Source: Myxococcales bacterium
GTDB lineage: Bacteria > Myxococcota_A > Polyangia > Nannocystales > Nannocystaceae
Reading direction: 5' to 3'
DNA length: 64,000 nucleotides
Assembly: GCA_020633295.1 (NCBI GenBank)
Contig: JACKDW010000001.1
Span: 1,149,828-1,213,827 of the forward strand
The position numbers and the translations under genes are program-made. This document shows, one piece after another, positions 7,113-48,460 of this stretch; the first letter of the stretch is position 1; every line of letters starts with the position of its first letter. A model generated the notes under the pieces. It saw only the letters and a list, made by a program, of their open reading frames with translations. It searched no databases and was not told where the DNA came from.

Positions 7113-7193
7113 GTCTTTAGAGACAGTATATCGAAGCCGCGGCGTTGGTTCGCGCGCCTTTGCCCGCGCGCGCGGGTAGCACACGCACCTACG

Positions 7194-8180
<987 letters not shown>

Positions 8181-8216
8181 CGGTCAGCGTGACGTCGCTC
8201 GAGCGAGCGATCGAGC

Positions 8217-8678
8217 TCAATCCAGGAAGTCGCCGAGCGTGCGCCCGAGGTTCGGCGCCGCGGCCTCCACGTGCCCCTGCGCCGTCCCCCGCAGGCGCTG
8301 GTAGGCCTTCTTGATCGCGCCGCTGACCTTCTCGGCGCGGCGATCGGTGACGACGAGCAGCGCCTCGGCGGCGCGCCGCGTGTCGCGGGACAGCGCGTCG
8401 GCGAACGCGTCGCCGACCGACACGTCTTCGCCCTCGGCGCGGCGCTGGGCCTCAACATAGAAGGGCTCGAGCGCCTCGGCGAATTCCGGGAGCAGGCGAT
8501 CGACGACCTCGGCGACCATCGTCGGCTTGACGGCCTTGACCACGCGGAACCCCGTGCGGACCGCCGCGCCCGACAGCCCGCGCTTGCCGGCGACCTCGGA
8601 CTCGACCAGCGAGACGCACGCCGTGACGACGCGCGGGCGGGTTTCGGACTGCGTGAGGAGCTCGGCGAGGGTTGCCAT
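8217..8678 (-). CDS. Hypothetical protein
   Basis: Protein-like composition from MATLAELLTQSE onward. Upstream part of the ORF is Arg/His-rich artefact. Confidence 0.4.
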   Translation of the reverse strand: MATLAELLTQSETRPRVVTACVSLVESEVAGKRGLSGAAVRTGFRVVKAVKPTMVAEVVDRLLPEFAEALEPFYVEAQRRAEGEDVSVGDAFADALSRDTRRAAEALLVVTDRRAEKVSGAIKKAYQRLRGTAQGHVEAAAPNLGRTLGDFLD

Positions 8679-8764
8679 GGAGCGCGGGTATGGCGGAATT
8701 CGACGCCGTTCGCAAGACGTCGCGCGTGGACAGTGCCCGCGTCGACTGCGATGATGCGGTCGAC

Positions 8765-16055: not shown

Positions 16056-19007
<2,952 letters not shown>

Positions 19008-19030
19008 CGGGTACTCATAACACGGGGCCC

Positions 19031-19126
19031 GACGCCGACAGGACCGCCGACAGGACCGCCGAGACGACCGCCGAGCCGACCGCCGAGACGACCGCCGAGA
19101 TGACCGCCGAGATGACCGCCGAGCCT
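19031..19126. repeat. 12-bp tandem repeat x8 (accgccga[g/c]a[c/g/t][g/c/t]) in the M16/thioesterase divergent region
   Basis: gacgccgacagg accgccgacagg accgccgagacg accgccgagccg accgccgagacg accgccgagatg accgccgagatg accgccgagcct. Confidence 0.85.
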
Positions 19127-19129
19127 CCC

Positions 19130-19558
19130 ATGTTCTCGCACCGGCTGCGCGTGCGCTACGCCGAGGTCGACGCCCAGGCGGTCGTCTACAACGCGCACTA
19201 CCTCATGTACTACGACATCGCGCTCGTCGAGTACCTGCGCGCCCAGGGCCTGCCCGAGCCCGCGACGCCGCCGGAGCCCGGGCGCGACTTCGTCGTCAAG
19301 CGCACGAGCCTCGAGTTCGACGCGCCGCTGCGCCTCGATGATCTGTTCGATGTTACATGTCGCGTCGCGCGGCTCGGCCGCAGCTCGATCACCTTCGCGC
19401 TCACGATCGTGCGCGCGGGCGAATCCACCCCGTGCAACCGCGGCGAGATCATCTGGGTCTACACCGACATGCAGCAGCGCCGCGCGTGCCCGATCCCGGC
19501 GCACCTGCGGGCGCTGCTGCTCGGCGCGGCGACCACGAGCGCGCCGGCGCGCCCGTGA
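19130..19558 (+). CDS. YbgC/4HBT-family acyl-CoA thioesterase (hotdog fold)
   Basis: MFSHRLRVRYAEVDAQAVVYNAHYLMYYD motif. ATG at 19130. The track ORF extends 5' through the tandem repeat, possibly not translated. Confidence 0.65.
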   Translation: MFSHRLRVRYAEVDAQAVVYNAHYLMYYDIALVEYLRAQGLPEPATPPEPGRDFVVKRTSLEFDAPLRLDDLFDVTCRVARLGRSSITFALTIVRAGESTPCNRGEIIWVYTDMQQRRACPIPAHLRALLLGAATTSAPARP

Positions 19559-24636: not shown

Positions 24637-26115
24637 TCAGTCTCCGCGATCGGCCGCGAGGATGAACTGCGCGTAGAATCGAACGCCCCCGGCGAGATCC
24701 TCGATCGGGATGCGCTCGTTGAGCCCGTGGAAGCGGTGGTTGTCCTCGGGCTCGAAGCGCAGCGGGCTGAAGCGGTAGCTGTCGTCGGCGATCTCCTCGT
24801 AGAAGCGCGAGTCCGTGCCGCCGATCACGAGGCCCGGGACCGTCACGACCTCGGGGTAGGTCCGCGCGAGCGCGCGCCGGACCGCGAGAAAGCCCGGGCC
24901 GTCGGCCGCGCTGACGCGCGTCGGGTCGCGGCCGCCGGGGAGCGGCTCGAGCTCGATCGCCGGGTCCGGGACCACGCGGCGGACATGCGCGAGCACGTCC
25001 TCGATCGTCTCCCCCGGGAGGATGCGGTGGTTGATCACGACGCTCGCTACGCCCGGGAGCACGTTGTCCTTCACCCCGCCGTCGATCATCGTGAACGCGG
25101 TCGTCGTCCGGATCATCGCGTCGGTCGCCGGGCGCGACGCGAGCAGGCGGAGGATCAGCGGGTCGAACAGCCAGCGGTTCGCGAACACCGCGCGCATGCC
25201 GAAGCTCATCTCGGGCGCGAGCGCGTCGAACAGCAGCCCCGTCGGCGGTCGCAGATCCGCCGGGAGCGGGTGATCGCGGAGCTGCTGGATCGCGTCCGCC
25301 AGCGTCGTGATCGATCCCGCCCGCGCCGGGATCGAGCTGTGTCCGCTCTCGCTCCGTACGCGCAGCCTGACCGAGAGGTAGCCCTTCTCCGCGACGCCGA
25401 CCAGCGCGACCGGGGCGGCGATCGGCATCTGCCGCTCGAGGATCAGCATGCCCTCGTCGAGCGTGAATTCGAGCCGCACGTCGCGTGACCGCAGGCGCTC
25501 GACGATGGCGCGCGCGCCCCCGCCGTCGCCCTCCTCATCATGCCCAAAGGCCAGATAGATCGTGCGCCGCGGCTGCGCGCCGCTCTCGAGCAGCTGCTCG
25601 ACCGCCTGCAGGATCGAGATCACCGAGTTCTTGTTGTCGACCGCGCCGCGACCCCAGACGAAGCCGCCCGCGACCGCGCCGGAGAACGGGGGCTGCTCCC
25701 ACTCGGCGAGCTCGTTGGGATCCACGGGCACCACGTCGAGGTGGGCCAAGATCGCGATCGGGCGCGCGGCGGGATCGCTGCCGCGCCACGTGTAGAGGAG
25801 GCTGTAGTCGGCGACGACCTCGCGCGTGAGCGTCGCGTGCACGCGCGGGAAGCTGCGCTCGAGGTGGTCGTGCAGCGCGAGCAACGGCTCGCGCGCGGGC
25901 GGGGCGTCCGGGCGCGTGACGGTCTCGAGGCGCAGCGCGCCCGCGAGCTTGTCGGCCACCGCGTCCACGTCGACGGTGAGCTCCTCGCCGGGCGTCACCT
26001 CGAAGGGGATCGGGCGCACGCTCGCGGCTCGAATGATGACGATCACGAGCAGGACCGCGACCGCCGCGATCACGACGCGCCCCCCCCGGCGAAGCAGTCT
26101 CTTGAATCGCTCCAT
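24637..26115 (-). CDS. M20-family metallopeptidase (carboxypeptidase/dipeptidase-like), membrane-anchored or secreted
   Basis: ILAHLDVVPV...GRGAVDNK...HDEEG motifs. N-terminal TM/signal. Confidence 0.7.
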   Translation of the reverse strand: MERFKRLLRRGGRVVIAAVAVLLVIVIIRAASVRPIPFEVTPGEELTVDVDAVADKLAGALRLETVTRPDAPPAREPLLALHDHLERSFPRVHATLTREVVADYSLLYTWRGSDPAARPIAILAHLDVVPVDPNELAEWEQPPFSGAVAGGFVWGRGAVDNKNSVISILQAVEQLLESGAQPRRTIYLAFGHDEEGDGGGARAIVERLRSRDVRLEFTLDEGMLILERQMPIAAPVALVGVAEKGYLSVRLRVRSESGHSSIPARAGSITTLADAIQQLRDHPLPADLRPPTGLLFDALAPEMSFGMRAVFANRWLFDPLILRLLASRPATDAMIRTTTAFTMIDGGVKDNVLPGVASVVINHRILPGETIEDVLAHVRRVVPDPAIELEPLPGGRDPTRVSAADGPGFLAVRRALARTYPEVVTVPGLVIGGTDSRFYEEIADDSYRFSPLRFEPEDNHRFHGLNERIPIEDLAGGVRFYAQFILAADRGD

Positions 26116-26146
26116 CGAACGCCCGCACCAGTGTACGTGACGCGAG

Positions 26147-26184
26147 ACGTCAAACACCCCGCCTCGAGGACCTCGAAGGCGGGG
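26147..26184. terminator. 12-bp-stem GC-rich hairpin downstream of the histone-fold gene
   Basis: aaacaccccgcc-tcgaggacctcga-ggcggggtgttt perfect inverted repeat. Confidence 0.55.
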
Positions 26185-26363
26185 TGTTTAACAGGATCGA
26201 CTCGACGGGGGCTGCCCCGTTCGGGTCTTCGCGCTCACCGGAGTGGAAACGCTCCGTCTCGGTGATACGGGAGCCAGGTGTTTCCTTCGGTCACCCCGGA
26301 CCGGGGCGCGCGCGAACCCGGGCAGCGAGCCCTGTCTCGTGCGGCGAAGGGACCGGCTGGGCG

Positions 26364-27544: not shown

Positions 27545-27720
27545 GTCGATCACCGGGGGTCTTCGCACCACATGCGGGGGTCTGGGGCGGCGATTGTACG
27601 GCGCGTCTCGTCATCGCATGCGTGAGTGAGCGCAAGTCCGGGGCGTTTCTCCCCGCGCGCCGAACGTCGCCCTCGCCGCCATTGCACGCCACGAAACCGG
27701 GGTGATACGCCTGCGGTCCC

Positions 27721-29880
27721 ATGTTTGTGGGAGTCGCGGCGTACGGGAGAGCCCGGCGATACGGCGGGCCGGCGCTCGCGGTGTTGCTCGCGCTGACGCT
27801 CGCCTGCGACGCGCCGAGCGTCCCGGAGTCGGCGCCCGTGCCCGAACCGAGCGCGGCGCTGCGACCACCGGAGGCGCGCGGACATGTCCCGAGTGACGCG
27901 CGCGTCGCCGACTACGTCATCGACGCGCGGCTCGACGCGGACGAGCACCAGGTGACCGGCACCGTGCGCATCACGTGGCGCAACCGGACCAGCCGGACCG
28001 TCGACGACCTCCAGCTGCACACCTACATGAACGCGTTTCGAGCCGAGGACACGGCCTGGATGCGAGAGGCGCGAGGAGGTCACCGCGGGTCATCGCTCGC
28101 GCACGAGGACGACGCGCCCGGCTGGGGTTACGTCGATCTGCTCGCGGTCCGCCGCCTCGACCACGAGAGCCCGCCGCCGCCCCGCGGCGCGAGCGAGCTC
28201 TCGGCGGCCGCGCCGGTGCAGCTGCGCTGGGCCGAGGGCGAGGACCCGAGCGTGACCCGCGTCGCGCTCGACGAGCCGCTCGGGCCGAACGACCAGGTCA
28301 CGGTCGAGCTCGACTTCGTGACGCAGCTCCCGCGGGTGTTCGCGCGCACCGGCTACGCGGGCGACTTCCACATGCTCGGCCAGTGGTACCCGAAGATCGC
28401 GGTGCTCGAGACGGGCGGCTGGCGCAACCACGTGTTCACGCTCAACGCCGAGTTCTACGCGGACTTCGGCGACTACACGGTGCACCTGGATGTCCCAGAG
28501 AACATGATCGTCGGCGCGTCCGGCGTGCTCGTCGAGGAGCGCGTCGAGGACGGCCGCAAGCGCCTGCGCTACGACGCCGAGATGGTCCACGACTTCGCCT
28601 GGGTCGCCGACCCCGACTTCGTCGAGCACCTCGGCGAGTGGCACGGGATCCGGATCCGCCAGCTGCTCCAGCCCGAGCACGCGCGCGACGCCCCGCAGCA
28701 CCTCGCGGCCCAGATCGCGGCGCTCGAGAGCATGGAGGCGCGCTTCGGCCCGTACCCGTGGTCGACCATCACGATCGTCCACGTGCCCAAGGAGGCCAAG
28801 GGCGCCGGCGGCATGGAGTACCCGACGCTGTACACGACGTCGGACATCCTCGCGCGCAAGCCGTGGCACGCGCTGGTCGGCTTCGACGAGCGGCTCTCCG
28901 GGGTGTTCACGACCATCCACGAGTTCGGGCACCAGTACTTTCAGGGGCTCCTGGCCTCGAACGAGCAGCGGCAGCCCTGGCTCGACGAGGGCATGAACAC
29001 CTTCTCCAACGGCCTCGCGATCATGGACTGGACGCAGTCTGAGTCGCCCGTCGTCGCGCGCCTCGGCAACCAGGTCGCGACCGTCGATCAGCTCGGGCGC
29101 CTCACCATGCTCGTCAAGACCGACCTCGTGCCCGTCGACAGCGCCGCGGAGGAGTTCCCGAAGCTGACCGAGTCCTACGGCTCGACGGTGTACCGCAAGA
29201 CCGCGGCGCTCATGCAGACGCTGCGGAGCTACGTCGGCCACCCGCGCTTCGACGCGGCGCTGCGCGTCTACGCGGAGCGCTGGCGGTTTCGTCACCCGAC
29301 CGGCGACGACCTCGTGGCCACGCTGCTCGAGCAGCTAGGCCCGCGCGCGACGCTGACTCGCGAGGGCGACGAGCGCGTCGAGCTCGACGTCCGCGACTAC
29401 CTCGATCAGGCGCTGCACACCGTGCGTCGCGTCGACTTCGAGCTCGAGCGCGTGCAGAACCGCCGGGCGGTCTCGAGCGCCGGCTGGCACCGCGACGAGC
29501 ACGGCGCGCTGGTCGGCGGCGAGCCGCCCGCCGAGGAGACGTCGATCGCCGAGCTCGCGGATGACGAGCTCGAGGGCGTCGTCGTCGTGCGCCGCAAGGG
29601 CGACTTCCAGCTGCCGGTCGAGCTGGAGATCGAGTTCTCCGACGGCGCGGTCGTCCGGCGCTGGTGGGACGGGCGCGACGCGTACCGGATCTTCGTGTGG
29701 CCGGGGCGACGGGTCGCGCGCGCGACCGTCGACCCCGACCGCCTGATCGCGCTCGAGAGCTACACGCTCAACAACACGCGCTTCGCCCCCGAGCTCGAGC
29801 GCGACGACGGGCTCTCGCGGCCGATCGGCGACACGGTCGAGCTCGTCGAGCTCGCGCTGCTCGGAGGGCTCGGCCTGTGA
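27721..29880 (+). CDS. M1-family (aminopeptidase N-like) zinc metallopeptidase lipoprotein
   Basis: Lipobox LALTLACDA. HEXXH-(18)-E gluzincin motif IHEFGHQYF...WLDEGMNTF. Confidence 0.7.
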   Translation: MFVGVAAYGRARRYGGPALAVLLALTLACDAPSVPESAPVPEPSAALRPPEARGHVPSDARVADYVIDARLDADEHQVTGTVRITWRNRTSRTVDDLQLHTYMNAFRAEDTAWMREARGGHRGSSLAHEDDAPGWGYVDLLAVRRLDHESPPPPRGASELSAAAPVQLRWAEGEDPSVTRVALDEPLGPNDQVTVELDFVTQLPRVFARTGYAGDFHMLGQWYPKIAVLETGGWRNHVFTLNAEFYADFGDYTVHLDVPENMIVGASGVLVEERVEDGRKRLRYDAEMVHDFAWVADPDFVEHLGEWHGIRIRQLLQPEHARDAPQHLAAQIAALESMEARFGPYPWSTITIVHVPKEAKGAGGMEYPTLYTTSDILARKPWHALVGFDERLSGVFTTIHEFGHQYFQGLLASNEQRQPWLDEGMNTFSNGLAIMDWTQSESPVVARLGNQVATVDQLGRLTMLVKTDLVPVDSAAEEFPKLTESYGSTVYRKTAALMQTLRSYVGHPRFDAALRVYAERWRFRHPTGDDLVATLLEQLGPRATLTREGDERVELDVRDYLDQALHTVRRVDFELERVQNRRAVSSAGWHRDEHGALVGGEPPAEETSIAELADDELEGVVVVRRKGDFQLPVELEIEFSDGAVVRRWWDGRDAYRIFVWPGRRVARATVDPDRLIALESYTLNNTRFAPELERDDGLSRPIGDTVELVELALLGGLGL

Positions 29881-31834: not shown

Positions 31835-32754
31835 CTACAGCAGGTGCCCCGCGAGCAGATCGATGCGCTCGCGCATCGCCGGCGTGATTTTGCTCGGGTC
31901 CGTCATGATCGCGTGCTCGAGCGCGCGCGGGTACGGGAGCTCGGCGGTCGTCTGCGGCAGCTCGGCGGCGACCTTGACGATCACCTCGCGGGCGCGCGCG
32001 GCGTTCTGCCGGACCACCGCGATCACGGCCTCGACCGAGACCTCCTCCTCGCTCTCGTGCCAGCAGTCGTAGTCGGTCGAGAGGGCCATGAGCGCGTACG
32101 CGATCTCGGCCTCGCGCGCGAGCTTGGCCTCGGGCAGCGCGGTCATGCCGATCACGCTCGCGCCCCAGCTGCGGTAGAGGTTGGACTCGGCGCGCGTGCT
32201 GAACACCGGGCCCTCCATGACGACGTAGGTGCCGCCGTCGTGCACGGTCGCGCCGGCCTCGCGCGCGGCCGCGACGAGGCGCCCGCGCAGGCCCGCGTCG
32301 ACGGGGTCGCCGAACTGCACGTGCGCCGCGACGCCCTCGCCGAAGAAGGTCGCGGGACGGCCCTTCGTCCGGTCGATGAATTGATCGGGGAACACGAGGT
32401 GACCGGGGACGATCGGCGCCTGCAGCGAGCCGACGGCGGACACGCTGATGAGGTGCGTGACGCCGAGCTGCTTGAAGCCGTGGATGTTGGCGCGGTAGTT
32501 GATCTCGTGGGGCAGCACGGTGTGCCCGTGCCCGTGCCGCGGGAGGAACGCGACGCGCACCGGCTCACCGCTCGCGCGCGGGAGCAGCCCGCAGGTGTAG
32601 GCGGCCGAGGGCGCGCCAAACGGCGTCGAGAGCTCGACGGTCTCGACCCGCTGCAGCGCGTCCATGTCGTAGAGCCCGGAGCCGCCGACGACCCCGAGGA
32701 CGACGTGACTGCGAGCTTCGGGGGAGGCCGGGTGAACGCTGGCTGGCGACATCG
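31835..32754 (-). CDS. mtnP: S-methyl-5'-thioadenosine phosphorylase
   Basis: PNP/MTAP family (GVVGGSGLY...FLPRHGHGH...MTALPEAKLAREAEI). ATG at 32752-32754. Confidence 0.75.
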
Positions 32755-32916
32755 CGCCGGAGGATAACGCGCCAGCGCGTCGCGTCCAGCCTGCGCGCGA
32801 CCGACCGACGCGCGATTTTCTCGAGCGACGCGAGCGCGCGCGCTGGCCCAGCGCGCTCACGGCGGGGTCTTCCGGCCCGTGGGAGCCCGGTGTATAGGGC
32901 TCTGCGAGCCTCCTCC

Positions 32917-34506
32917 ATGGAATCGACCCCAACTTCGGCGCGCGCGCGCGGGATCGCGGCCGCAGGTCACGTGATCACGGCCGAGGCCGCGTCGGAGGTG
33001 ATGGCGGCCGGCGGCAACGCGATCGACGCGGTCGTCGCGGCGCTGTGGGCCGCGAGCGTGGCCGAGCCCGTGCTCTCGTCGCCGGGCGGCGGCGGCTTCA
33101 TCCTCGCGCGCACGGCCGACGGCCAGACGCGGGTGCACGACTTCTTCGTGCACACGCCCCGGCGCAAGCGCATGCGCGACGTCGACTTCTACCCGATCGT
33201 CGCGGACTTCGGCGTCGCCACGCAGACCTTTCATATCGGCCTCGGCGCCGCGGCGGTCCCCGGCTTCGTGCGCGGGGTGTTCGCGGCCCACCGCGAGCAC
33301 GGCACGATGCCGATGCGCCGCCTCGTCGAGCCCGCGATCGCGGCCGCGCGCGAGGGCCTGCTGCTGCGGGACTACGAGCAGTACCTGCTCTCGGTGGTCG
33401 GCCCGATCTACAAGATCACGCCGGAGGCCTGCGCCCTGTTCGCGCGCCCGGGAGACGACGGCGCGCCGGCGCTCAAGGGCGCCGGCGATCGCATCGCCAA
33501 CCCCGAGCTCGCCGACACGCTCGAGGTGCTCGCGCGCGAGGGCGACGCGCTGTTCTACGAGGGCGAGATCGCGGCGTCGATCGCGAAGCTCTGCGCCGAG
33601 GGCGGCGGCCACCTCACGCGCGAGGACCTCGCCGGCTACCGCGACGTCGCGCGCCCGCCCCTCGTGCACCACTACCGCGGCGCGCGGCTCGAGCTCAACC
33701 CGCCGCCGGCGCTCGGCGGTCTGCTGATCGCCCACTCGCTCGAGCTGCTCGCGCGCCTGCACCCCGGCGAGCGCGACCTCCAGCGGCTCGGCCGCGGCAG
33801 CCCCGCCCACGCGCTGCTGCTCGCGCGGACCCAGCAGGAGACCAACCGCGCGCGCGTGGCCGCGGAGGCGCTCGTCGAGGGCGGCGAGACGCCGCCGATG
33901 CTCGACGACGTGTGGCTCGATCGCTTCGTCGCGTCGCTGGCTGACACAAAGGTCAGCCAGCGCGGGACCACGCACATCAGCGTCATCGACCGCGACGGCA
34001 ACGCGGCCGCGGCCACCGTCTCGAACGGCGAGGGCTGCGGCCACATGATCCCGGGGACAGGGATCATGCTCAACAACATGCTCGGCGAGGAGGACCTCAA
34101 CCCGCGCGGGATGGGCTCCTGGCCCCTGGGCAAGCGCATGACGTCGATGATGGCGCCGGCGGCGATCCACCTCCCGAGCGGCGACCTCGCGATCGTCGGC
34201 AGCGGCGGCTCCAACCGGATCCGCACCGCGATCCTGCAGGTGATCCTCAACATGGTCGACTTCGGGATGGACGCGCGCGCGGCCGTCGAGGCCCCGCGTC
34301 TGCACCAGGAGGGCAAGCACCTCGACTTCGAAGCGCTCGTGGGTCGCGAGACCCGCGACGCGCTCGCGCGCGCGTTCCCCGATCATCGGGCCTGGCCGAC
34401 GCGCAACATGTTCTTCGGGGGGGTGCACACGGTCGTGCGCGCCGCCTCGGGCGCGCTGAGCGGCGCCGGTGATCCGCGGCGCGCCGGCGTGTGCGTGGTC
34501 GCGTGA
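32917..34506 (+). CDS. ggt: Gamma-glutamyltransferase
   Basis: Autoprocessing-site Thr nucleophile QRGTTHISVIDRDGNA. GGxxG region. Confidence 0.75.
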   Translation: MESTPTSARARGIAAAGHVITAEAASEVMAAGGNAIDAVVAALWAASVAEPVLSSPGGGGFILARTADGQTRVHDFFVHTPRRKRMRDVDFYPIVADFGVATQTFHIGLGAAAVPGFVRGVFAAHREHGTMPMRRLVEPAIAAAREGLLLRDYEQYLLSVVGPIYKITPEACALFARPGDDGAPALKGAGDRIANPELADTLEVLAREGDALFYEGEIAASIAKLCAEGGGHLTREDLAGYRDVARPPLVHHYRGARLELNPPPALGGLLIAHSLELLARLHPGERDLQRLGRGSPAHALLLARTQQETNRARVAAEALVEGGETPPMLDDVWLDRFVASLADTKVSQRGTTHISVIDRDGNAAAATVSNGEGCGHMIPGTGIMLNNMLGEEDLNPRGMGSWPLGKRMTSMMAPAAIHLPSGDLAIVGSGGSNRIRTAILQVILNMVDFGMDARAAVEAPRLHQEGKHLDFEALVGRETRDALARAFPDHRAWPTRNMFFGGVHTVVRAASGALSGAGDPRRAGVCVVA

Positions 34507-34597
34507 GCGTCGTCGCCTCGGCTCACGGGCCGGCGCGCGACCGCGTGTGACTCTCCGCGCGTGGTCAAGCGCGCGGCTTGCTGCTACACTCCCCGCG

Positions 34598-34683
34598 TCT
34601 CGAGGAGCGTTGCGACGGCCGTGTGCCGCCAGGCTCGAGACGCCCCGCGAGAACCAGCGCGGGATCGCAACGGCGCTCGTGAA
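34598..34683 (+). ncRNA. SAH (S-adenosylhomocysteine) riboswitch in the ahcY leader
   Basis: tCUCGAGGAGCGUUGCGAC...gccAGGCUCGAG...caACGGCGCUC matches the conserved cores and P1 pairing (CUCGAG/CUCGAG) of the SAH riboswitch class. Positioned 60 nt upstream of ahcY. Confidence 0.7.
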
Positions 34684-34743
34684 CCGGCCCTCCGCTGTTC
34701 GCGACGCACCGGGCGCGGCGGGCCATTCCCGAAGGAATGTGCT

Positions 34744-39556: not shown

Positions 39557-41032
39557 TCACTCGGGCACGAACACGGCCTTGAGCGCGCCGCCGGTCATGT
39601 CCGAGTAGGTGTAGTGCACGCCGGCGATCGGCAGCTGCTCCGCCAGCTCGGTCTCGGGATCGAGCCGCCAGGCCCAGCCGTCGTAGTCGACGATCCACAC
39701 CTTGCCCTCGATGTCGATGCTGACGCCGACGGGCGTGCCGCACTGCGGGAAGTAGTGGTTCTTCACCCAGGTCTTGGTGTTGCCGTCGACCTGGATCAGC
39801 CCGCAGCCGGCGCCCCCGTTCGCGTTGGACGCGACCCAGACCTGGTAGTTGAGGTCGACCGCGATCCCGCGGTGACACGAGTTCGTGTCGGGGATGAGGT
39901 GGAAGGTCTGCAGCTGCGGGTCGAAGTAGGAGATCGGGCCGCAGTAGCCGCCGAACCACGGCAGGCCGTTGAAGTCGACCGTCATGCCGTAGGGCGTGTG
40001 CCCCATGCCCGAGTTCCAGTGCGAGAGCTCGAGCGTCTTGCTGTTGACGCGCCAGAGGTCGTCCTGGAACACCCCGGTGAACCACACGTTGCCGTCGCCG
40101 TCCATGGCCGCGCCGTACGGCGCGTGCGAGGCCGGCCAGCCGTCGATCTGCACCGTCGCGTCCTGCACGCCCGAGTTGATGTCGATGCGGCCCATGTAGG
40201 CGATGCCGTTGCTCGTGTGCCAGCCGACCCAGAGCTTCTGCGCGTCGTACTCGCAGGTACCCTGGTTAAAAATGCCAGGGTCGAAGGTCGTCCCGCGCGG
40301 GCCGCCGACGTACTCGGCGATCGGCGGGTTCACGGTCGTCGTCCAGATCCGGCACTCCTCCTGGTCGTAGGGGACGAGCGTGTCCTTGTCGGGCGAGGTC
40401 GTGATCATCCCGTCGTTGTTCTTGTCGATGCAGTCCTCGACCTGCGACGCGTACATGCTGACGGTCCCGGTGCCGCGGTTGGAGACCGCGGCGTAGCGGC
40501 CGTCGATGTTGACCGAGGTGCGCGACGGGCTCGCGGCCGCGGGGTTGGGATCGCTGTAGTAGCGCGCGAGCTCGGTCATCGACTGGGTGTCGATCTTCGA
40601 GATGCTGCCCTGCGCGGTGTTGGCGACCCAGAGGTAGCTGTAGTCGACGTCGCCGTTGCCGCCGCCGCCCATGTTGCAGTCCGCGTCGCCGTCTCCGTCT
40701 CCGTCGCCGTCCCCGTCGCCGTCCCCGTCGCCGTCTCCGTCGCCGTCTCCGTCGCCGTCTCCGTCGCCGTCTCCGTCGCCGTCTCCGTCACCCGCGGTCG
40801 AGCCCGACCCGCTCATCGACGAGTCGGAGCCAGCCGGCCCCGCCGACGTCTCGCTGCCGCCGTCGCTCACCGATCCCGCGGACGCGTCGCTCGCGGCGCT
40901 CGCGTTGCTGTCGCCGCTGTCGCTCGAGGACTCGCTCTCGCGCGTGCTGTCGTCGCCGCACGCCGACGCGATCAGGGTCAGCGCGCCGAGGAGCCCGAGC
41001 GCGCCCCGCCAGTAACCGGTTTGATAAGACAT
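39557..41032 (-). CDS. (GD)n-repeat lipoprotein with C-terminal beta-propeller-like domain
   Basis: Lipobox LTLIASACGDD. S/D-rich linker. (GD)19 from (gacggc)n. Repeated hydrophobic-Trp blades (NGIAYMGRI, GNVWFTG, GKVWIVD). Confidence 0.65.
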   Translation of the reverse strand: MSYQTGYWRGALGLLGALTLIASACGDDSTRESESSSDSGDSNASAASDASAGSVSDGGSETSAGPAGSDSSMSGSGSTAGDGDGDGDGDGDGDGDGDGDGDGDGDGDGDGDGDGDADCNMGGGGNGDVDYSYLWVANTAQGSISKIDTQSMTELARYYSDPNPAAASPSRTSVNIDGRYAAVSNRGTGTVSMYASQVEDCIDKNNDGMITTSPDKDTLVPYDQEECRIWTTTVNPPIAEYVGGPRGTTFDPGIFNQGTCEYDAQKLWVGWHTSNGIAYMGRIDINSGVQDATVQIDGWPASHAPYGAAMDGDGNVWFTGVFQDDLWRVNSKTLELSHWNSGMGHTPYGMTVDFNGLPWFGGYCGPISYFDPQLQTFHLIPDTNSCHRGIAVDLNYQVWVASNANGGAGCGLIQVDGNTKTWVKNHYFPQCGTPVGVSIDIEGKVWIVDYDGWAWRLDPETELAEQLPIAGVHYTYSDMTGGALKAVFVPE

Positions 41033-41246
41033 GTTTTAAAAGATAGTTGAATGAGCCACCGCCGGGAAGCGGTCCTGAGCGCCGCGCGTCGCCGCCCCGA
41101 GCGCCGCGCGTCGCCGCGAGCTCGCGCGCCGACGTGAGCGAACATGGCCGTGAGACCAGGATAAAGCCACGCGGCCGCAGACGACGGCGACGGGCAGCGC
41201 GCGCCCGCCCGGTGCGCGAGCGCCCGGCTGGCGACCCGGTTCCGGC

Positions 41247-43181
41247 TCAGGGGTCGAGCGGCACGAGCGCCGCGGCGTCGAGGTCCTCGTTGTCGCCGAT
41301 GTCGTCGACCGCGCCGTTGCCGAGCTGCCCGGCGCTCCCGCGACCCCAGCAGCGCACCGCGCCGTCAAAGGCGCGCGCGCAGGTGTGCGCCCCGCCGGCG
41401 ACGAGCCCAGCCTGCGTCTCGAGCGTGAGCGCACCGACGGCGCTCGGCACCTCCCCGGGGTCGTCGCCGAGGTTCTCCGAGTCGCCGTAGCCCAGCCGAC
41501 CGTTCGCGCCGGCGCCCCAGCACAGCGCGCCGGCGCCCCCGGCGAGGATCGTGCACGTGTGCTCGGCGCCTGCGGCCACCGTCTCGTTGTCGCCGCCCGT
41601 CGAGATGAAGCCCGCGTTCATCACCGTGGTGAGCGCGCTGTCGCCGATGTTCGCCGTGTCGCCCTGCCCGAGCTGACCCGAGGCGCCCTGACCCCAGCAC
41701 AGCAGCTCGCGGATGGTGTTGACCTCGAACACGCCGCAGGAGAACCGCCCGCCGACGCGCAGCGCGACCGCGTCCGCGTCGACCAGCACGTACGGGCTCG
41801 CGCCCGCGCTCTCCGTGACCATGGCGCCGTAGTCGTCGGTGTCGTCGTGCCCGAGCTGCCCCTGATCGTTGCGACCCCAGCAGCGGATCTTGCCCCCCGT
41901 CTGCGTCGAGACCAGGGCGCAGCTGTGATCGCCGCCCGCGGCGATCGCCTGCACGAGGGCGTCGTCGGGGAACAACAGCGGCGTCAGGTCGACGAGCGAC
42001 TCGTCGTCGCCGAGCGACTCGGCCGAGCCGCGACCGAGCTGCCCGAAGGTCCCTCGCCCCCAGCACAGCGCGCCGCCGTCCTTCAACATCACGCAGGTGT
42101 GCGCGTCGCCGGCCGCGACGCTCACGACGACGGCGCCGACGGGCAGCGGCACCGGCCCGACCTCGGCGGGGACCTCGTCGTCCCCCACGTCGTCCGTGTT
42201 GCCGTAGCCCAGCTGCCCCTCGGCGTTGTCGCCCCAGCAGAACAGCGCGCCCTCGTCCGTGTACGCGCAGGTGTGCCGTCCGCCGGCCGCGAGCCCGAGC
42301 ACGCGGTACTGCGGGCCGCCGAGATCGACGTCGAGGTAGGGCAGCGACCCGGGGCTGTTGCCGACGGTGTTCGTGTCGCCGTAGCCGAGGCGCCCGTCGC
42401 TCCCCTTCCCCCAGCAGCGGATCGCGCCGCCCCACAGCAGCGCGCAGGTGTGCTCATCGCCCGCGACGAGCGCCCGCGCGCCGCCCTTGAACACGCAGAA
42501 CGACTCGCACAGCGCCGCGTCCTCGTCGTCGGCAGACGGGTCGCACTGCTCGTGCAGATCGTGCACGGCGTTGCCGCAGGTGGTCCACTGGCAGCTGTTG
42601 TTGCACATCGGCCCGCCCTCGCAGGCCTCCTCCAGCCCCGGGCCCTGCTGCACCACGCCGTCGCCGCAGCTCGCGGCCACGCAGGCGTTCGAACAGGCGT
42701 CGAGGTCGTCGAGGTTGCCGTCGTCGCACTCTTCGTCGTCGTCGAGCACGCCGTCGCCGCACACGCCACCGCTGGTCGTCGTGCCGTCGGTGGTCGTGCC
42801 CGTCGAGCTCTCGCTGGTCGAGCTCGTCGAGCTCGTCAGGCCCTCCGTCGTGCTCGACGTCAGCGGGTCCGTGGAGGACGCGTCCCCCGTGGTCTCGACC
42901 GTGGTCCCCGGCCCCTCGGTCGCGGGCGCGGTCGTCGTCCCCTCGCTCGTCGCCGCGCCGTCGCAGCCCTCGAGGCCGAGGCTCTCGAACGAGAGGCCGT
43001 CAGTGTGGCAGTGCCCGGGCGTCGCCGTGCAGCCGGCGCCGAGGCACATCACCGCACCGAGCGCCGCGACGGACAGCGCGGCCCACAGCTCCAGATCTCG
43101 ACGCACCACCGTCGCTATCGTACCGCGGACCTGGCCGCCCGCGCAGGTCCAGCTGATCGCGCGCTTCCGCGCCGCGCCCAC
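41247..43181 (-). CDS. Lipoprotein with Myxococcus-type cysteine-rich repeats followed by RCC1-like repeats (about 6)
   Basis: CGDGVLDDDEECDDGN and following Cys repeats. Repeated CWGxxxxGQLGxG blades (RCWGKGSDGRLGYG, FCWGDNAEGQLGYG, LCWGRGTFGQLGRG, RCWGRNDQGQLGHD, LCWGQGASGQLGQG, RCWGRGSAGQLGNG). Start uncertain (lipobox LGAGCTA). Confidence 0.7.
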   Translation of the reverse strand: MGAARKRAISWTCAGGQVRGTIATVVRRDLELWAALSVAALGAVMCLGAGCTATPGHCHTDGLSFESLGLEGCDGAATSEGTTTAPATEGPGTTVETTGDASSTDPLTSSTTEGLTSSTSSTSESSTGTTTDGTTTSGGVCGDGVLDDDEECDDGNLDDLDACSNACVAASCGDGVVQQGPGLEEACEGGPMCNNSCQWTTCGNAVHDLHEQCDPSADDEDAALCESFCVFKGGARALVAGDEHTCALLWGGAIRCWGKGSDGRLGYGDTNTVGNSPGSLPYLDVDLGGPQYRVLGLAAGGRHTCAYTDEGALFCWGDNAEGQLGYGNTDDVGDDEVPAEVGPVPLPVGAVVVSVAAGDAHTCVMLKDGGALCWGRGTFGQLGRGSAESLGDDESLVDLTPLLFPDDALVQAIAAGGDHSCALVSTQTGGKIRCWGRNDQGQLGHDDTDDYGAMVTESAGASPYVLVDADAVALRVGGRFSCGVFEVNTIRELLCWGQGASGQLGQGDTANIGDSALTTVMNAGFISTGGDNETVAAGAEHTCTILAGGAGALCWGAGANGRLGYGDSENLGDDPGEVPSAVGALTLETQAGLVAGGAHTCARAFDGAVRCWGRGSAGQLGNGAVDDIGDNEDLDAAALVPLDP

Positions 43182-43292
43182 GCGCCGCGACGCGGACGCG
43201 CGCGCGCCTCGCCTCGCCGCGCGCTCACCCGCCCGCGACGACGCGCGACGCGGACCGAGCCGCGCGCGTCGGCGCGAGCGCGCGCGCCCTGA

Positions 43293-44594
43293 CTACCCGA
43301 GCGGCGGGCAGTCGTAGTTGAAGCTCATCTCGCCGGACTGCTGATACGCGTTGCAGGCCGCGCCGCACAGCTCGATGAAGGTCTCGCTCCCGTCGGTGTA
43401 GCGCCAGCCGGTCTCGGTCGCGCAGTCCGCCCCGTCGGGCAGCGGGTCGGGGTACGAGTCGCCGCCGACCTCGATCCGCAGCGTCGTCATGTCGGGCTGA
43501 TCGCCGGGGACCTGGATGATGCACGGCAGCACGCCGCCGATGATCCCCTGCAGCGCCTCCTGCAGCTCGATCTTGTTGACCGTGTTGTAGAACTTCTCCG
43601 TGGGGTCGTCCTTCGGTCGCCCGCCGGCGACGGCCGCGTCGTTGAGCACCTCGAAGGGGTTGATCCCCTGGTTGTCGGGCGCGTTCTCGATGTCGACGCC
43701 GATCACGTAGGTGGCGATGCCCTGCGCGAGCGCGTCGGTGATCGTCGGCACGAGGTTGGCGTCGTACTCGAGCAGCTGATCGTCGTTGTTCGCGTTCGTG
43801 CTGCAGTTCGCGGAGCCGTCGGTGATGAAGATGATCAGGCTCTGCGGCTTGTCCTCGCCGGTCATCGGGTCCGGCAGGCCGAGCAGGTGATCGACCGCCG
43901 ACGCGACGCCGCGCTCGGCCGGCGTGCCGCCGGCGAGGCTCGTGTCGCTGGCCCCGGGGATCCCGGCCAGCACGCTGCTGGCGTTCGTCGGCGCGACCGG
44001 GACCTCGGGCGGCGAGTTGACGAGGCACGCGTCGGGGCCGAGCGCGGGCACGGCGTCGACCGAGGGGAACAGCTGCGCGCCGAGGTTGAGGTTGCCGTCG
44101 TACTGCGTCCCGATCAGCTCGACGACCTCGTGCAGGCTGCGCCAGCGCGTGACCTTCGGCGTCGCCGGCGTCATCGGGTCGCTGTCCTTGAAGCCGTCGT
44201 CGTTCGCGTCGTCGGCGTCGTCGTCCCAGTTGTTGTTGTCGTTGACCATCGAGCCGGACTTGTCGAGCACCAGCATGACGTTGGGCGCGGTGTTGGTCTG
44301 CATGTCGACCGCCGCGCCGCCGCACCAGTTGCCGTCGAACATGCACACGCCCTCGTTGCAGATCTCGGTGATGTCGCAGTCCGACTCGGACTCGCACATC
44401 ACGGGGCCGCCCGCGGTCGTCCCCGAGTCGGTGTCGGACCCGCTGGTGGAGATCGACGACGTGACGCCGAGCGAGTCGATCCCGCCCGCGTCCTCGGTGC
44501 CCGCAGATGAGGTGGTCCCGCTCCCGCTGTCTCCGCAGGCTCCGAGGAGCAGCGCGAGCGCGAGCGCGCGGTGGCGTCTGGTCATGGCGTTCAT
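43293..44594 (-). CDS. vWA-domain lipoprotein (MIDAS motif) with S/T/D linker and Cys-containing C-terminal domain
   Basis: Lipobox LLLGACGDS. MIDAS VLDKSGSM. FITDGSAN. ATG at 44592-44594. Upstream part of the track ORF is artefact. Confidence 0.7.
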   Translation of the reverse strand: MNAMTRRHRALALALLLGACGDSGSGTTSSAGTEDAGGIDSLGVTSSISTSGSDTDSGTTAGGPVMCESESDCDITEICNEGVCMFDGNWCGGAAVDMQTNTAPNVMLVLDKSGSMVNDNNNWDDDADDANDDGFKDSDPMTPATPKVTRWRSLHEVVELIGTQYDGNLNLGAQLFPSVDAVPALGPDACLVNSPPEVPVAPTNASSVLAGIPGASDTSLAGGTPAERGVASAVDHLLGLPDPMTGEDKPQSLIIFITDGSANCSTNANNDDQLLEYDANLVPTITDALAQGIATYVIGVDIENAPDNQGINPFEVLNDAAVAGGRPKDDPTEKFYNTVNKIELQEALQGIIGGVLPCIIQVPGDQPDMTTLRIEVGGDSYPDPLPDGADCATETGWRYTDGSETFIELCGAACNAYQQSGEMSFNYDCPPLG

Positions 44595-44662
44595 TGTCTG
44601 GCTGTCCTTTCGTCGCGGGCCGACGCCGCGCGCCAGGCCGCCTCCTCGAGCACCTCGGCGCG

Positions 44663-45970
44663 TTACTCGATGATCGCCTCGCACGCGCACTCGATGACGA
44701 CCTTGACCTCGCCCTCCTGGATCGCAACGCACGCGTCGCCGACGAGCTCGATCTCGTCGGGCGCGTTGAGCTGCCAGCCGTCGGGGTCCTCGTACGGCAC
44801 CTCGTCGTCGTTGATCGTCACGCGGCACTCTGACTCCATGCCGTCGACGACCTCGACGTTGAGCGCGAGCTTGCAGTCGCGCACGCCGTTGATGATCGTG
44901 TTGAACGCGTCGACGAGGCCCTGGCTGTCGTTGGCCTTCCAGAACTCCGCGTCGTCGGGCGCCATCTGGCCGAGCCCCGCGTTGGCGAGGTCCTGCAGGT
45001 GCTGATCGCTCACGTCGTTGCCGACGCTGATGACGAACACCTGCACGCCCGCGGTGTAGGCGTTGGCGGCGGCCGCGACCGAGACGGCCTGGCCGTTCTG
45101 CGGATCGGGCTCGGCGCAGGTGTCGGGCTCGCCGTCGGTCGCCAGCACGATGACCTTGGGTCCGTCGTCTGGCAGCGCGAGCAGCGTCGGCACCACGGCG
45201 TCGATCGCCTCGCCGGTCGGCGTGTCGTCCTCGGGGACGTTCTGCGAGTAGAGCGCGTCCATGGCCGCGGAGTTGTTCAGCGCCACGGGCGTCTCGGCCA
45301 TGACCGGGCACTCGCCGAAGTCGAAGCCGTTGAAGCTGGTGTAGAGCGAGAGGCCGAAGTGGACCTGGGACTCGTACTGCGCGACGACGCCGACGTCCTG
45401 GTCAAACAGCGCCTCGTAGACCGCCTCCCAGCGCGTCTGGCCCGAGAAGTTCTGGGTCATGCTCCCCGACTGATCGACGAGCACGACGACGTAGGGCTCG
45501 GTCGGCGCGAACAGCACGTTCGCGCCGCAGATCTCCTCGGTGTCCGAGCCGGTCTCGGTCTCCCCGTTCGTGTTGGAGTTCGAGTTCGAGTTCGAGTTCG
45601 AGTTCGAGTTCGAGTTCGAGCTCGAGTCCGTCGCGGAGTTCGAGTCGCTGTTGGAGTTGGAGTCGGAGTTCGAGTCGGTCCCGGCGCTCGAGTTCGAGTC
45701 GCTGTTGGAGTCCGAGCCCGCCGAGTCCGACGCGGTCTGCGAGTCCGAGTTCGACGCGCTCGCCGGGCCCGCGCTCGCCGAGTCGCTGTTGCTGTCGCTC
45801 GGGCCGTTGCTGTCGCTCAGCGACATCGCCTGGCACGTCTCGAGGCTCTGGCTGCCCGCGAAGCCGTCATCGCTGCAGTTGTTGCCGCACGCGGGGACGA
45901 CCACGGCCGCGGCGGCGAACGAGAACACCCCGCCGATCGCGGGGATAACGCGTCGAATTACGAATTGCAT
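44663..45970 (-). CDS. Second vWA-domain lipoprotein, paralogous architecture, with (SN)n/(SD)n repeat linker
   Basis: Lipobox VVVPACGNN. (NS)n from (gagttc)n. MIDAS VLVDQSGSM. LATDGEPD. C-terminal Cys pair CACE. Confidence 0.7.
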   Translation of the reverse strand: MQFVIRRVIPAIGGVFSFAAAAVVVPACGNNCSDDGFAGSQSLETCQAMSLSDSNGPSDSNSDSASAGPASASNSDSQTASDSAGSDSNSDSNSSAGTDSNSDSNSNSDSNSATDSSSNSNSNSNSNSNSNSNTNGETETGSDTEEICGANVLFAPTEPYVVVLVDQSGSMTQNFSGQTRWEAVYEALFDQDVGVVAQYESQVHFGLSLYTSFNGFDFGECPVMAETPVALNNSAAMDALYSQNVPEDDTPTGEAIDAVVPTLLALPDDGPKVIVLATDGEPDTCAEPDPQNGQAVSVAAAANAYTAGVQVFVISVGNDVSDQHLQDLANAGLGQMAPDDAEFWKANDSQGLVDAFNTIINGVRDCKLALNVEVVDGMESECRVTINDDEVPYEDPDGWQLNAPDEIELVGDACVAIQEGEVKVVIECACEAIIE

Positions 45971-46024
45971 GTATTTCGCTCCGGCACCCGCGCCCGGTCG
46001 ACGTGGGTGTTCGGGCATATTTTC

Positions 46025-46050
46025 ACATGTTCATTTAGACATGTCCATTT
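46025..46050. promoter_or_regulatory. Two direct 12-mers ACATGT(T/C)CATTT spaced 14 bp in an AT-rich island upstream of the vWA gene
   Basis: acatgttcattt ag acatgtccattt. Each contains the ACATGT palindrome. Confidence 0.45.
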
Positions 46051-46219
46051 GGCGCTTTTCCAAACGCCCGCGAAATTCGTGGGCAGAGGTCCCCACGCCG
46101 CGACGGCGCGCCGGGCCGCGGCCGCGCGCCCCCACGGCTGATTCCGAGCGCGCGAGCGCGTCGCGCCGCGCGAGCGAAAACCTGGCGCGAAGGTCAGCTA
46201 AACTCGACGAGCCGCGGGG

Positions 46220-48460
<2,241 letters not shown>

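What the first reader, a model, noticed from the sequence alone, without database searches (positions are those of the whole stretch)
39557..45970. Cluster of four secreted repeat-architecture lipoproteins: (GD)19 beta-propeller protein, RCC1/Myxo-Cys-repeat protein, two tandem vWA proteins
Four consecutive minus-strand genes all begin with lipobox signals followed by S/T/D/N low-complexity linkers. Their downstream domains are a beta-propeller, RCC1 blades preceded by Myxococcus cysteine-rich repeats, and two paralogous vWA (MIDAS DxSxS) domains each with a Cys-containing C-terminal module. Tandem vWA lipoproteins next to propeller and RCC1 proteins suggest a cell-surface adhesion or complex-assembly locus, for example matrix, predation or motility-associated surface proteins. 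Each gene is preceded by a short AT-rich island (41030-41055; 46018-46075) in otherwise 70% GC DNA. A 19-bp direct repeat gagcgccgcgcgtcgccgc x2 sits at 41076-41119.
Basis: partly seen in the sequence, partly recalled or inferred. Interest (0 to 1): 0.55.

Follow-up and report, generated by a model that had tools for sequence, protein, structure and literature searches.

The report
Four adjacent myxobacterial lipoprotein genes, not a system
Four neighbouring genes in a Nannocystis-like myxobacterium encode surface lipoproteins (two adhesin-like vWA proteins related to the gliding adhesin CglB, and two beta-propellers), but they are not found together in any relative examined, so this looks like an ordinary chance neighbourhood and not a new machine.

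Summary
There are four consecutive minus-strand genes with lipoprotein-type signals and low-complexity linkers:
- g1 is a 7-bladed NHL/YVTN-type propeller carrying (GD)18.
- g2 has Cys-rich acidic repeats followed by 7 RCC1 blades.
- g3 and g4 are vWA proteins with complete MIDAS motifs and a Cys-containing C-terminal beta-domain.

Corrections: the repeat is (GD)18, not 19. AT-rich islands precede only g1 and g4. The g4 lipobox is atypical.

New result: g3 and g4 belong to two anciently diverged sister families (hhalign E 4e-56). All 50 members tested match NCBIfam's CglB model, the Myxococcus gliding adhesin. Their scores (about 40 bits for g3 and g4) are far below the 200-bit ortholog cut-off.

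The "adhesion/complex locus" reading fails its own refutation test. In 80 g3-family loci from species-representative genomes, none has a g1-like propeller or a g4-family gene nearby. Two have an RCC1 gene, on the other side. Ten have a second g3-like copy. Orthologues of g4 and g1 sit in unrelated contexts.

All four families are large and multi-copy, mainly in Nannocystales; the g4 family also occurs in Polyangium/Polyangiaceae. Lipoprotein genes are dense in this window. Verdict: ordinary members of known kinds, juxtaposed in a lineage-specific way. Low interest.

The parts
39557..41032 (-). g1: 491-aa lipoprotein. Signal and lipobox (LIASAC, Cys25), S/D/G-rich linker with (GD)18, then a 7-bladed NHL/YVTN-type beta-propeller (about residues 130-491) ending in an invariant HYTYSDMTGG motif.
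   Evidence: Translation. Pfam Vgb_lyase 36.8 bits, below the 50-bit cut-off. Family profile hits the PknD-derived Pizza designs, Vgb lyase and streptogramin lactonase in the PDB. AlphaFold pLDDT 91.5, pTM 0.90. Foldseek top hits 1l0q, 2z2p, YncE. At least 1980 homologues, named 'lyase/Vgb family' by their sources. Invariant columns.
40685..40792 (-). DNA encoding the (GD)18 linker repeat of g1.
   Evidence: Regex on the translation: residues 81-116 are 18 GD units. TRF: 12-nt unit, 8.8 copies, 95% match, at 40684-40789.
41011..41060 (.). AT-rich island abutting the g1 start codon. It is one of only nine stretches in 64 kb where a 25-nt window has GC of 36% or less.
41077..41117 (.). Two exact 19-bp direct repeats (GAGCGCCGCGCGTCGCCGC) with a 22-bp period in the g2-g1 spacer. 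Likely a local duplication or possibly a regulator site. Not conserved in relatives.
41247..43109 (-). g2: about 620-aa lipoprotein. Lipobox LGAGC, T/S-rich linker, three Cys-rich acidic repeats, seven RCC1 blades. The start is 43109 or 43106; the ORF is open to 43181.
   Evidence: Pfam WD40_RLD 313 bits, RCC1 and RCC1_2, DUF4215. TIGR02232 24.3 bits against a cut-off of 20.8. Lipobox.
43293..44594 (-). g3: 433-aa lipoprotein (LLLGAC, Cys20). It has a linker, a small Cys-knot, a vWA domain with MIDAS D111/S113/S115/T224/D259 and an acidic insert after the DxSxS, and a C-terminal Cys-containing beta-domain. It belongs to a Nannocystales multi-copy, CglB-like family.
   Evidence: NCBIfam CglB 42.2 bits, E 5e-11. 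Model pLDDT 83.3. Foldseek hits SpaC, PilB, integrin I-domains, LapA vWFA. The NCBI version starts 3 codons later (P0001).
44663..45970 (-). g4: 435-aa probable lipoprotein with an atypical lipobox (VVPAC). It has a long S/N/D linker, a vWA domain with MIDAS D166/S168/S170/T250/D279, and a C-terminal Cys-containing beta-domain. Its family is conserved across Nannocystales and Polyangiales and stands apart from g3-family, RCC1 and close g1-like genes in the three loci checked.
   Evidence: Pfam VWA 41.3 bits. CglB model 39.6 bits on the C-terminal domain. Homologues 50-60% identical in Nannocystis and Polyangium. 945 cluster representatives at E up to 1e-30. Full-length homology to the g3 family.
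46019..46047 (-). Sigma-70-like promoter (TGGACA, 17-nt spacer, TG-GAAAAT) in the AT-rich island upstream of g4. It is the likely start of a g4-g3(-g2) transcript and contains two ACATGT palindromes.
   Evidence: the only promoter-like site in 7.1 kb, against 0.2 expected. Sequence.

Best explanation
The region is a lineage-specific juxtaposition of four independently evolving genes for cell-envelope lipoproteins in a Nannocystales-like myxobacterium (a MAG labelled 'Myxococcales bacterium', locus tag H6713_04795). It is not a conserved multi-gene system.

Shown:
- The domain architectures and the intact MIDAS motifs.
- Homology of g3 and g4 to each other and, distantly, to the CglB model.
- Absence of conserved synteny.

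Inferred:
- Each product is exported by Sec, lipidated at the lipobox Cys and sorted to the outer membrane or cell surface. A disordered acidic or S/T-rich tether holds a folded head away from the membrane.
- g4 and g3 present an integrin-I-like vWA domain whose MIDAS-bound divalent cation would capture an acidic ligand, as in CglB. They are buttressed by a disulfide-stabilised beta-domain.
- g2 and g1 present 7-bladed propellers (RCC1-type and NHL/YVTN-type) as binding or possibly catalytic platforms.
- g4-g3 (and perhaps g2) are probably co-transcribed from the AT-rich promoter at 46019-46047. g1 has its own AT-rich upstream island.
For: - Architectures.
- CglB relation: all 34 g3-family and all 16 g4-family members hit NF033757, with best E-values of 7.9e-21 and 5.6e-19. 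No other vWA model is hit consistently.
- The g3 match (residues 101-271 to model positions 32-209) puts D111 and D259 in register with CglB D56 and D211, if the 402-position model starts near residue 15 of the 416-aa protein. This is an inference and PMC9946355.
- g3 and g4 families are homologous over the vWA and C-terminal domain (hhalign probability 100%, E 3.8e-56).
- No conserved cluster.
- The families are large and multi-copy: several g3-like loci per Nannocystis genome; at least 1980 g1-like hits; 945 g4-like cluster representatives at E up to 1e-30.
- Lipobox-like signals are frequent in this window: 8 of the 38 ORFs scanned, and g3 (mis-framed in that scan) passes the same rule. This includes another adjacent pair at 6135-8183.
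- Flanking genes are unrelated housekeeping or peptidase genes.
- Promoter and AT-rich islands occur only before g4 and g1.
Against: - g4 and g3 are only 68 bp apart on the same strand and are homologous adhesin-like proteins, so co-expression and some functional coupling in this organism cannot be excluded.
- The source genome and its very closest relatives are barely sampled. The only other copy is a 3.5-kb contig, L001, so a young but real module would look the same.
- Lipidation, localisation and ligand binding are all unverified.
- The g4 lipobox is atypical.
Confidence: 0.75

Rival explanations
1. One reading: the four genes form a dedicated cell-surface adhesion or complex-assembly module. 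This would be an integrin- or PilY1-like combination of vWA, propeller and Cys-rich parts split over several lipoproteins.
For: All four are on the same strand with short spacers (68 to 214 bp) and share a lipoprotein-plus-linker design. The combination of vWA, propeller and Cys-rich repeats is reminiscent of integrins and PilY1 (established knowledge; CglD preprint 10.1101/2023.10.19.562135).
Against: - Synteny is absent: 0 of 80 loci have a g1-like gene, 0 of 80 have a g4-family gene, and 2 of 80 have RCC1 on the other side.
- Orthologues of g4 and g1 sit in unrelated contexts.
- g1 has its own upstream island and a 214-bp spacer.
- Lipoprotein genes are dense here, so runs of them are expected.
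Confidence: 0.1
2. One or both vWA lipoproteins are the functional counterpart of CglB in this lineage. On this view they are substratum-coupling adhesins loaded onto an Agl-Glt-type gliding machine. The single-copy, widely conserved g4 family would be the core adhesin, and the multi-copy g3 family a repertoire of alternative adhesins.
For: - CglB is the only curated family that all members match, over both the vWA and the C-terminal domain.
- The overall design is the same: lipoprotein, MIDAS vWA, Cys-stabilised beta-domain (PMC9946355).
- Group-A glt genes are reported in Plesiocystis pacifica (PMC3169522). cglB homologues are reported as conserved across Myxococcales suborders (10.1101/2023.10.19.562135).
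Against: - Scores of about 40 bits for g3 and g4 against a 200-bit equivalog cut-off.
- No glt or agl genes in the 64-kb window, although cglB is not clustered with glt genes in M. xanthus either.
- There are several to many paralogues per genome, so most cannot be the essential adhesin.
- A closer true CglB orthologue may exist elsewhere in these genomes. This was not testable here.
Confidence: 0.15
3. g1 is an enzyme, a Vgb-type streptogramin or depsipeptide lyase or lactonase, as its database names suggest. On this view it is unrelated in function to its neighbours.
For: Sources name its homologues 'lyase' or 'streptogramin lyase'. The Pfam Vgb_lyase hit has E 2.6e-9. Vgb structures are among the top fold matches.
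Against: - The score is below Pfam's cut-off (36.8 against 50).
- The best fold match is a non-enzymatic S-layer YVTN propeller (1l0q), and other top matches are binding proteins (YncE, BT1954).
- The lipoprotein-tether design and multi-copy family fit binding proteins better.
- The Vgb catalytic residues were not checked.
Confidence: 0.1

Closest known systems
CglB, adventurous-gliding outer-membrane lipoprotein adhesin of Myxococcus xanthus (NCBIfam NF033757; PMC9946355)
   Same: It is a lipoprotein of about 420 aa with a lipobox Cys at about residue 20. It has an integrin-alpha-I-like vWA domain with a full MIDAS (DxSxS...T...D), an additional small beta-domain, and multiple Cys likely forming disulfides. 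Every g3- and g4-family member tested hits the CglB model.
   Different: g3 and g4 score about 40 bits against the 200-bit equivalog cut-off, and the best family members reach only E about 1e-19 to 1e-21. g3 and g4 carry 60-150-aa low-complexity tethers that a 416-aa CglB with MIDAS D56 has no room for. They have fewer Cys (13 and 11, against 17). g3 has an acidic insert after the DxSxS. The g3 family is multi-copy. A link to a Glt machine is untested.
Virginiamycin B lyase (Vgb) and NHL/YVTN 7-bladed propellers (PF24684; PDB 2z2p, 1l0q, 1rwi)
   Same: g1 has the same 7-bladed propeller fold. Foldseek E-values are 1e-11 to 1e-15 and the family profile matches at E 1e-15 to 1e-26.
   Different: g1 is below the Pfam cut-off. 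It has an N-terminal lipoprotein tether with (GD)18 and is about 70 aa larger than Vgb. It has a family-specific invariant C-terminal HYTYSDMTGG motif. Catalytic residues were not verified.
RCC1-like-domain proteins with TIGR02232 'myxo_disulf_rpt' repeats, common in Myxococcota
   Same: g2 passes both curated thresholds and has seven canonical blades.
   Different: Nothing notable. The lipoprotein anchoring and T/S linker are the only additions.
Integrins and PilY1 (vWA plus beta-propeller adhesins); BatA/BatB vWA pairs
   Same: These combine a MIDAS vWA domain with a 7-bladed propeller and Cys-rich modules (integrin, PilY1), or have two adjacent vWA genes (Bat operon).
   Different: Here the modules lie on separate, non-syntenic lipoproteins. 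There are no MoxR or Bat partners and no pilus genes nearby. This is an analogy only.

Membership tests
CglB (NCBIfam NF033757, equivalog) | Whole-protein score at or above the curated 200-bit cut-off | tested here: not met
   g3 scores 42.2 bits and g4 39.6 bits. The best E-values among the 50 family members are 7.9e-21 and 5.6e-19, with no evidence of any approaching 200 bits.
CglB (NCBIfam NF033757, equivalog) | Lipoprotein signal with lipobox Cys | tested here: met
   g3 has LLLGAC with Cys20 and passes the PROSITE-style rule. g4 has VVPAC, which fails the rule, but its homologues have canonical lipoboxes at that position.
CglB (NCBIfam NF033757, equivalog) | vWA domain with complete MIDAS (D-x-S-x-S...T...D; D56/S58/S60/T182/D211 in CglB) | tested here: met
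   g3 has D111/S113/S115/T224/D259, invariant in 34 sequences. g4 has D166/S168/S170/T250/D279, invariant in 16 sequences.
CglB (NCBIfam NF033757, equivalog) | Extra beta-domain and many disulfide-forming Cys (17 in CglB) | tested here: inconclusive
   The C-terminal beta-strand domain is modelled with pLDDT above 85. g4 residues 342-423 match CglB model positions 307-389. Cys counts are 13 and 11. Disulfides were not tested.
CglB (NCBIfam NF033757, equivalog) | Co-occurrence with, and dependence on, the Agl-Glt gliding machinery; essential for gliding | not testable with these tools
   There are no glt or agl genes in the 64-kb window. The phenotype needs genetics.
Pfam VWA (PF00092) | Score at or above the 23.8-bit gathering threshold | tested here: met
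   g4 scores 41.3 bits. g3 has no sequence hit but has the vWA fold by model and Foldseek (probability 1.00 to integrin I-domains, SpaC, PilB).
RCC1-like domain (PF25390) with TIGR02232 repeat | Curated cut-offs of 150 and 20.8 bits | tested here: met
   g2 scores 313.3 bits and 24.3 bits.
Vgb lyase family (PF24684) | Score at or above 50 bits | tested here: not met
   g1 scores 36.8 bits. The fold is shared.
Vgb lyase family (PF24684) | Catalytic His/Glu/Mg2+ site | not tested
   No residue-level alignment to 2z2n or 2z2p was obtained.
   Of 80 g3-family loci, 0 have a g1-like gene, 0 have a g4-family gene, 2 have RCC1 on the other side, and 10 have a second g3-like copy. g4 and g1 orthologues are found elsewhere.

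The most novel reading that the evidence does not exclude
The g4 family is found across Nannocystales and Polyangiales, mostly 40-60% identical to g4, and stood without other family members as immediate neighbours in the three loci examined. It could be the long-diverged functional equivalent of CglB for Agl-Glt-type gliding in the class Polyangia. The expanded, often tandemly duplicated g3 family would then be a Nannocystales-specific repertoire of alternative MIDAS adhesins, some with a Ca-binding-like acidic insert, tuned to different substrata or prey. Their adjacency here would reflect co-regulated adhesin expression.
Probability: 0.12. Interest if true: 0.5.

Novelty: new member of a known kind. 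Interest (0 to 1): 0.2.

Why it matters
Little changes if the main verdict holds. It documents that two large, uncharacterised families of myxobacterial vWA lipoproteins are distant CglB relatives with intact MIDAS sites. It also shows that a visually striking run of repeat-architecture lipoproteins need not be a system. If the novel reading were true, it would give candidate substratum adhesins for gliding in non-model myxobacteria such as Nannocystis and Polyangium. No gliding adhesin from these groups appeared in the papers read here.

Tried and rejected
- The exact-sequence look-up of g3 found only a 3.5-kb metagenome contig with the same g4-g3 pair. It gave no wider context.
- The AFDB Foldseek library was unavailable, so the g3 model could not be compared directly with a CglB model.
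- No CglB sequence could be obtained. The CglB relation therefore rests on NCBIfam HMM scores only.
- A PDB sequence search with the g3-family profile gave only marginal hits (E of 1e-3 or worse).
- The 19-bp direct repeat was tested as a dispersed motif (no enrichment), as an RNA structure (z = -0.85) and for conservation upstream of g1 orthologues (none). It was rejected as a notable element.
- Rfam and tRNA scans found nothing in the finding's range.
- The ATG at 46018 was rejected as the g4 start. It lies within the predicted promoter (46019-46047), and an independent gene call on L001 gives the 435-aa product.
- The MSCRAMM ClfA/ClfB/Sdr hits of g1 and g4 are low-complexity SD-type linker matches, not homology.
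Full report
**Observation**

The window is 72% GC. Coding frames were identified by GC3.

Four consecutive minus-strand genes occupy 39557-45970:
- g1: 39557-41032, 491 aa.
- g2: 41247-43109, about 620 aa. The start is GTG 43109 or 43106.
- g3: 43293-44594, 433 aa. NCBI's version P0001 starts three codons later.
- g4: 44663-45970, 435 aa.

g1, g2 and g3 pass a PROSITE-type lipobox rule. g4 (VVPAC) fails it because of Pro at position -2. Its homologues carry canonical lipoboxes at the aligned position. All four have long low-complexity linkers after the Cys.

The GD run is 18 units, not 19. It is encoded by a near-perfect 12-nt tandem repeat.

The 19-bp direct repeat is exact in two copies, at 41077-41095 and 41099-41117. 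It is not enriched elsewhere in the window. The spacer has no special RNA fold. The repeat is absent upstream of g1 orthologues.

AT-rich islands are rare in this window: only nine stretches have a 25-nt window with GC of 36% or less. They flank the starts of g1 and g4 only. The spacers before g2 and g3 are 83% and 76% GC. The only sigma-70-like promoter match in the 7.1 kb scanned lies at 46047-46019 on the minus strand, just upstream of g4. This suggests a g4-g3(-g2) transcription unit and a separate g1 unit.

**What the proteins are**

g1:
- It weakly matches Pfam Vgb_lyase (36.8 bits, cut-off 50).
- Its family profile matches NHL-type propellers in the PDB: the PknD-derived Pizza designs, streptogramin lactonase and Vgb.
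- Its AlphaFold model is confident (pLDDT 91.5, pTM 0.90).
- The model superposes best on 7-bladed propellers: archaeal S-layer YVTN 1l0q, Vgb, YncE and Bacteroides surface lipoproteins.
- At least 1980 homologues were found. Those that carry a source name are from Nannocystales or unclassified Myxococcales MAGs and are called 'lyase/Vgb family'.

g2:
- It has the RCC1-like domain at 313 bits and seven canonical blades.
- These are preceded by three Cys-rich acidic repeats, one of which passes TIGR02232.

g3:
- It has no Pfam hit.
- Its model (pLDDT 83) is a vWA fold matching the pilus adhesins SpaC and PilB, integrin I-domains and the LapA vWFA domain.
- It also has a C-terminal beta-domain.

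g4:
- It passes Pfam VWA.

The MIDAS residues are invariant across 34 g3-family and 16 g4-family sequences. The two families are homologous over the whole vWA plus C-terminal region (hhalign probability 100%, E 3.8e-56, 28% identity).

**Relation to CglB**

The only curated NCBIfam model that g3 hits, and that all 50 family members hit, is NF033757. This is the model for the M. xanthus gliding adhesin CglB.
- g3 scores E 5e-11 over the vWA part.
- g4 scores E 3e-10 over the C-terminal domain.
- The best family members reach E 7.9e-21 and 5.6e-19.

CglB is a 416-aa outer-membrane lipoprotein. It has lipobox Cys20, MIDAS D56/S58/S60/T182/D211, a beta-jellyroll and 17 Cys (PMC9946355). The design is therefore the same.

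The scores for g3 and g4 are about five-fold below the 200-bit equivalog cut-off. g3 and g4 are therefore CglB-like, not CglB.

Published surveys report group-A glt genes in Plesiocystis (PMC3169522). They also report cglB homologues as conserved across the former order Myxococcales (10.1101/2023.10.19.562135). Distant CglB homologues in this lineage are therefore not new in kind.

**Is it a system?**

A scan of one genome per species returned 80 g3-family loci. All were from Nannocystis, Enhygromyxa, Plesiocystis and related MAGs, often with several loci per genome.

tblastn with the four cores gave these results:
- No g1-like gene near any locus.
- No g4-family gene (at least 40% identity) near any locus.
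- An RCC1 gene near two loci, on the opposite side relative to the window.
- A second g3-like copy near ten loci, eight of them in tandem.

Of the 80 loci, 46 had at least 5 kb on both sides.

Individual contexts point the same way:
- The closest g3 relatives (57-59% identity) sit next to NAPRTase/isochorismatase or other unrelated genes.
- g4 orthologues in N. pusilla and P. fumosum have no g3-family, RCC1 or g1-like gene nearby. On a 98-kb metagenome contig the only family member nearby is a 30%-identical g1-like paralogue about 9 kb upstream.
- g1 orthologues at 75%, 59% and 55% identity have unrelated neighbours.

The g4 family alone has 945 50%-cluster representatives at E up to 1e-30.

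Lipobox-like signals occur in 8 of the 38 ORFs scanned in this window. g3 was mis-framed in that scan and passes the same rule separately. A run of four is therefore unremarkable for such genomes; this last step is an inference.

The flanking genes are unrelated. They include GGT, a riboswitch-controlled SAH hydrolase, an ABC ATPase, hydrolases, S9 peptidases, a cyclase, LigT and asparagine synthase.

**Verdict**

The best explanation is a lineage-specific neighbourhood of ordinary members of large secreted-lipoprotein families. Two of them are MIDAS-intact CglB-like adhesin candidates, probably co-transcribed.

The residual interesting possibility is that the g4 and g3 families are the gliding or adhesion adhesins of Polyangia. 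It cannot be tested with the sequence in hand and is given low probability.

Noticed in passing
window 34596-34685 (+): An SAH riboswitch (Rfam RF01057, 55.2 bits against a gathering score of 37) lies directly upstream of the S-adenosylhomocysteine hydrolase gene. The true ahcY start must therefore lie downstream of the listed ORF start at 34561.
   Followed up: partly
window 46025-46030 and 46039-46044: Two ACATGT palindromes 14 bp apart lie inside the AT-rich, sigma-70-like promoter upstream of g4. They could be an operator for a regulator.
   Followed up: no
window about 44175-44228 (g3 residues 123-140): The g3 family has an acidic insert (WDDDADDANDDGFKDSDP) immediately after the MIDAS DxSxS. 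It is present in only part of the family, modelled with high pLDDT, and reminiscent of thrombospondin/COMP-type Ca-binding motifs. g4 lacks it.
   Followed up: no
window 43110-43292: The g3-g2 spacer is 83% GC and made of degenerate CG-rich tandem repeats (TRF periods 2, 5, 19 and 29). It contains no promoter- or terminator-like site.
   Followed up: partly
window 6135-8183 (-) and 8657-11188 (+): This is another cluster of predicted lipoproteins: a C-type lectin with a MopE-type Cys motif, an unknown 330-aa protein, and a DPP-IV/S9 peptidase. Lipoprotein genes are dense in this genome region.
   Followed up: partly
L002 6005-12925; L088 269-4043: In some Nannocystaceae and Polyangia MAGs, g3-family genes (single or as a tandem pair) sit directly downstream of a NAPRTase-(NUDIX)-isochorismatase NAD-salvage cluster. 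This position is conserved in those MAGs and differs from the one in the window.
   Followed up: no
window 8657-11188, 16056-19202, 24637-26187, 27706-29880, 32503-34506, 46220-48460: The window is rich in peptidase genes (two S9, plus M16, M20, M1 and gamma-glutamyltranspeptidase). This would fit a predatory or proteolytic lifestyle.
   Followed up: no
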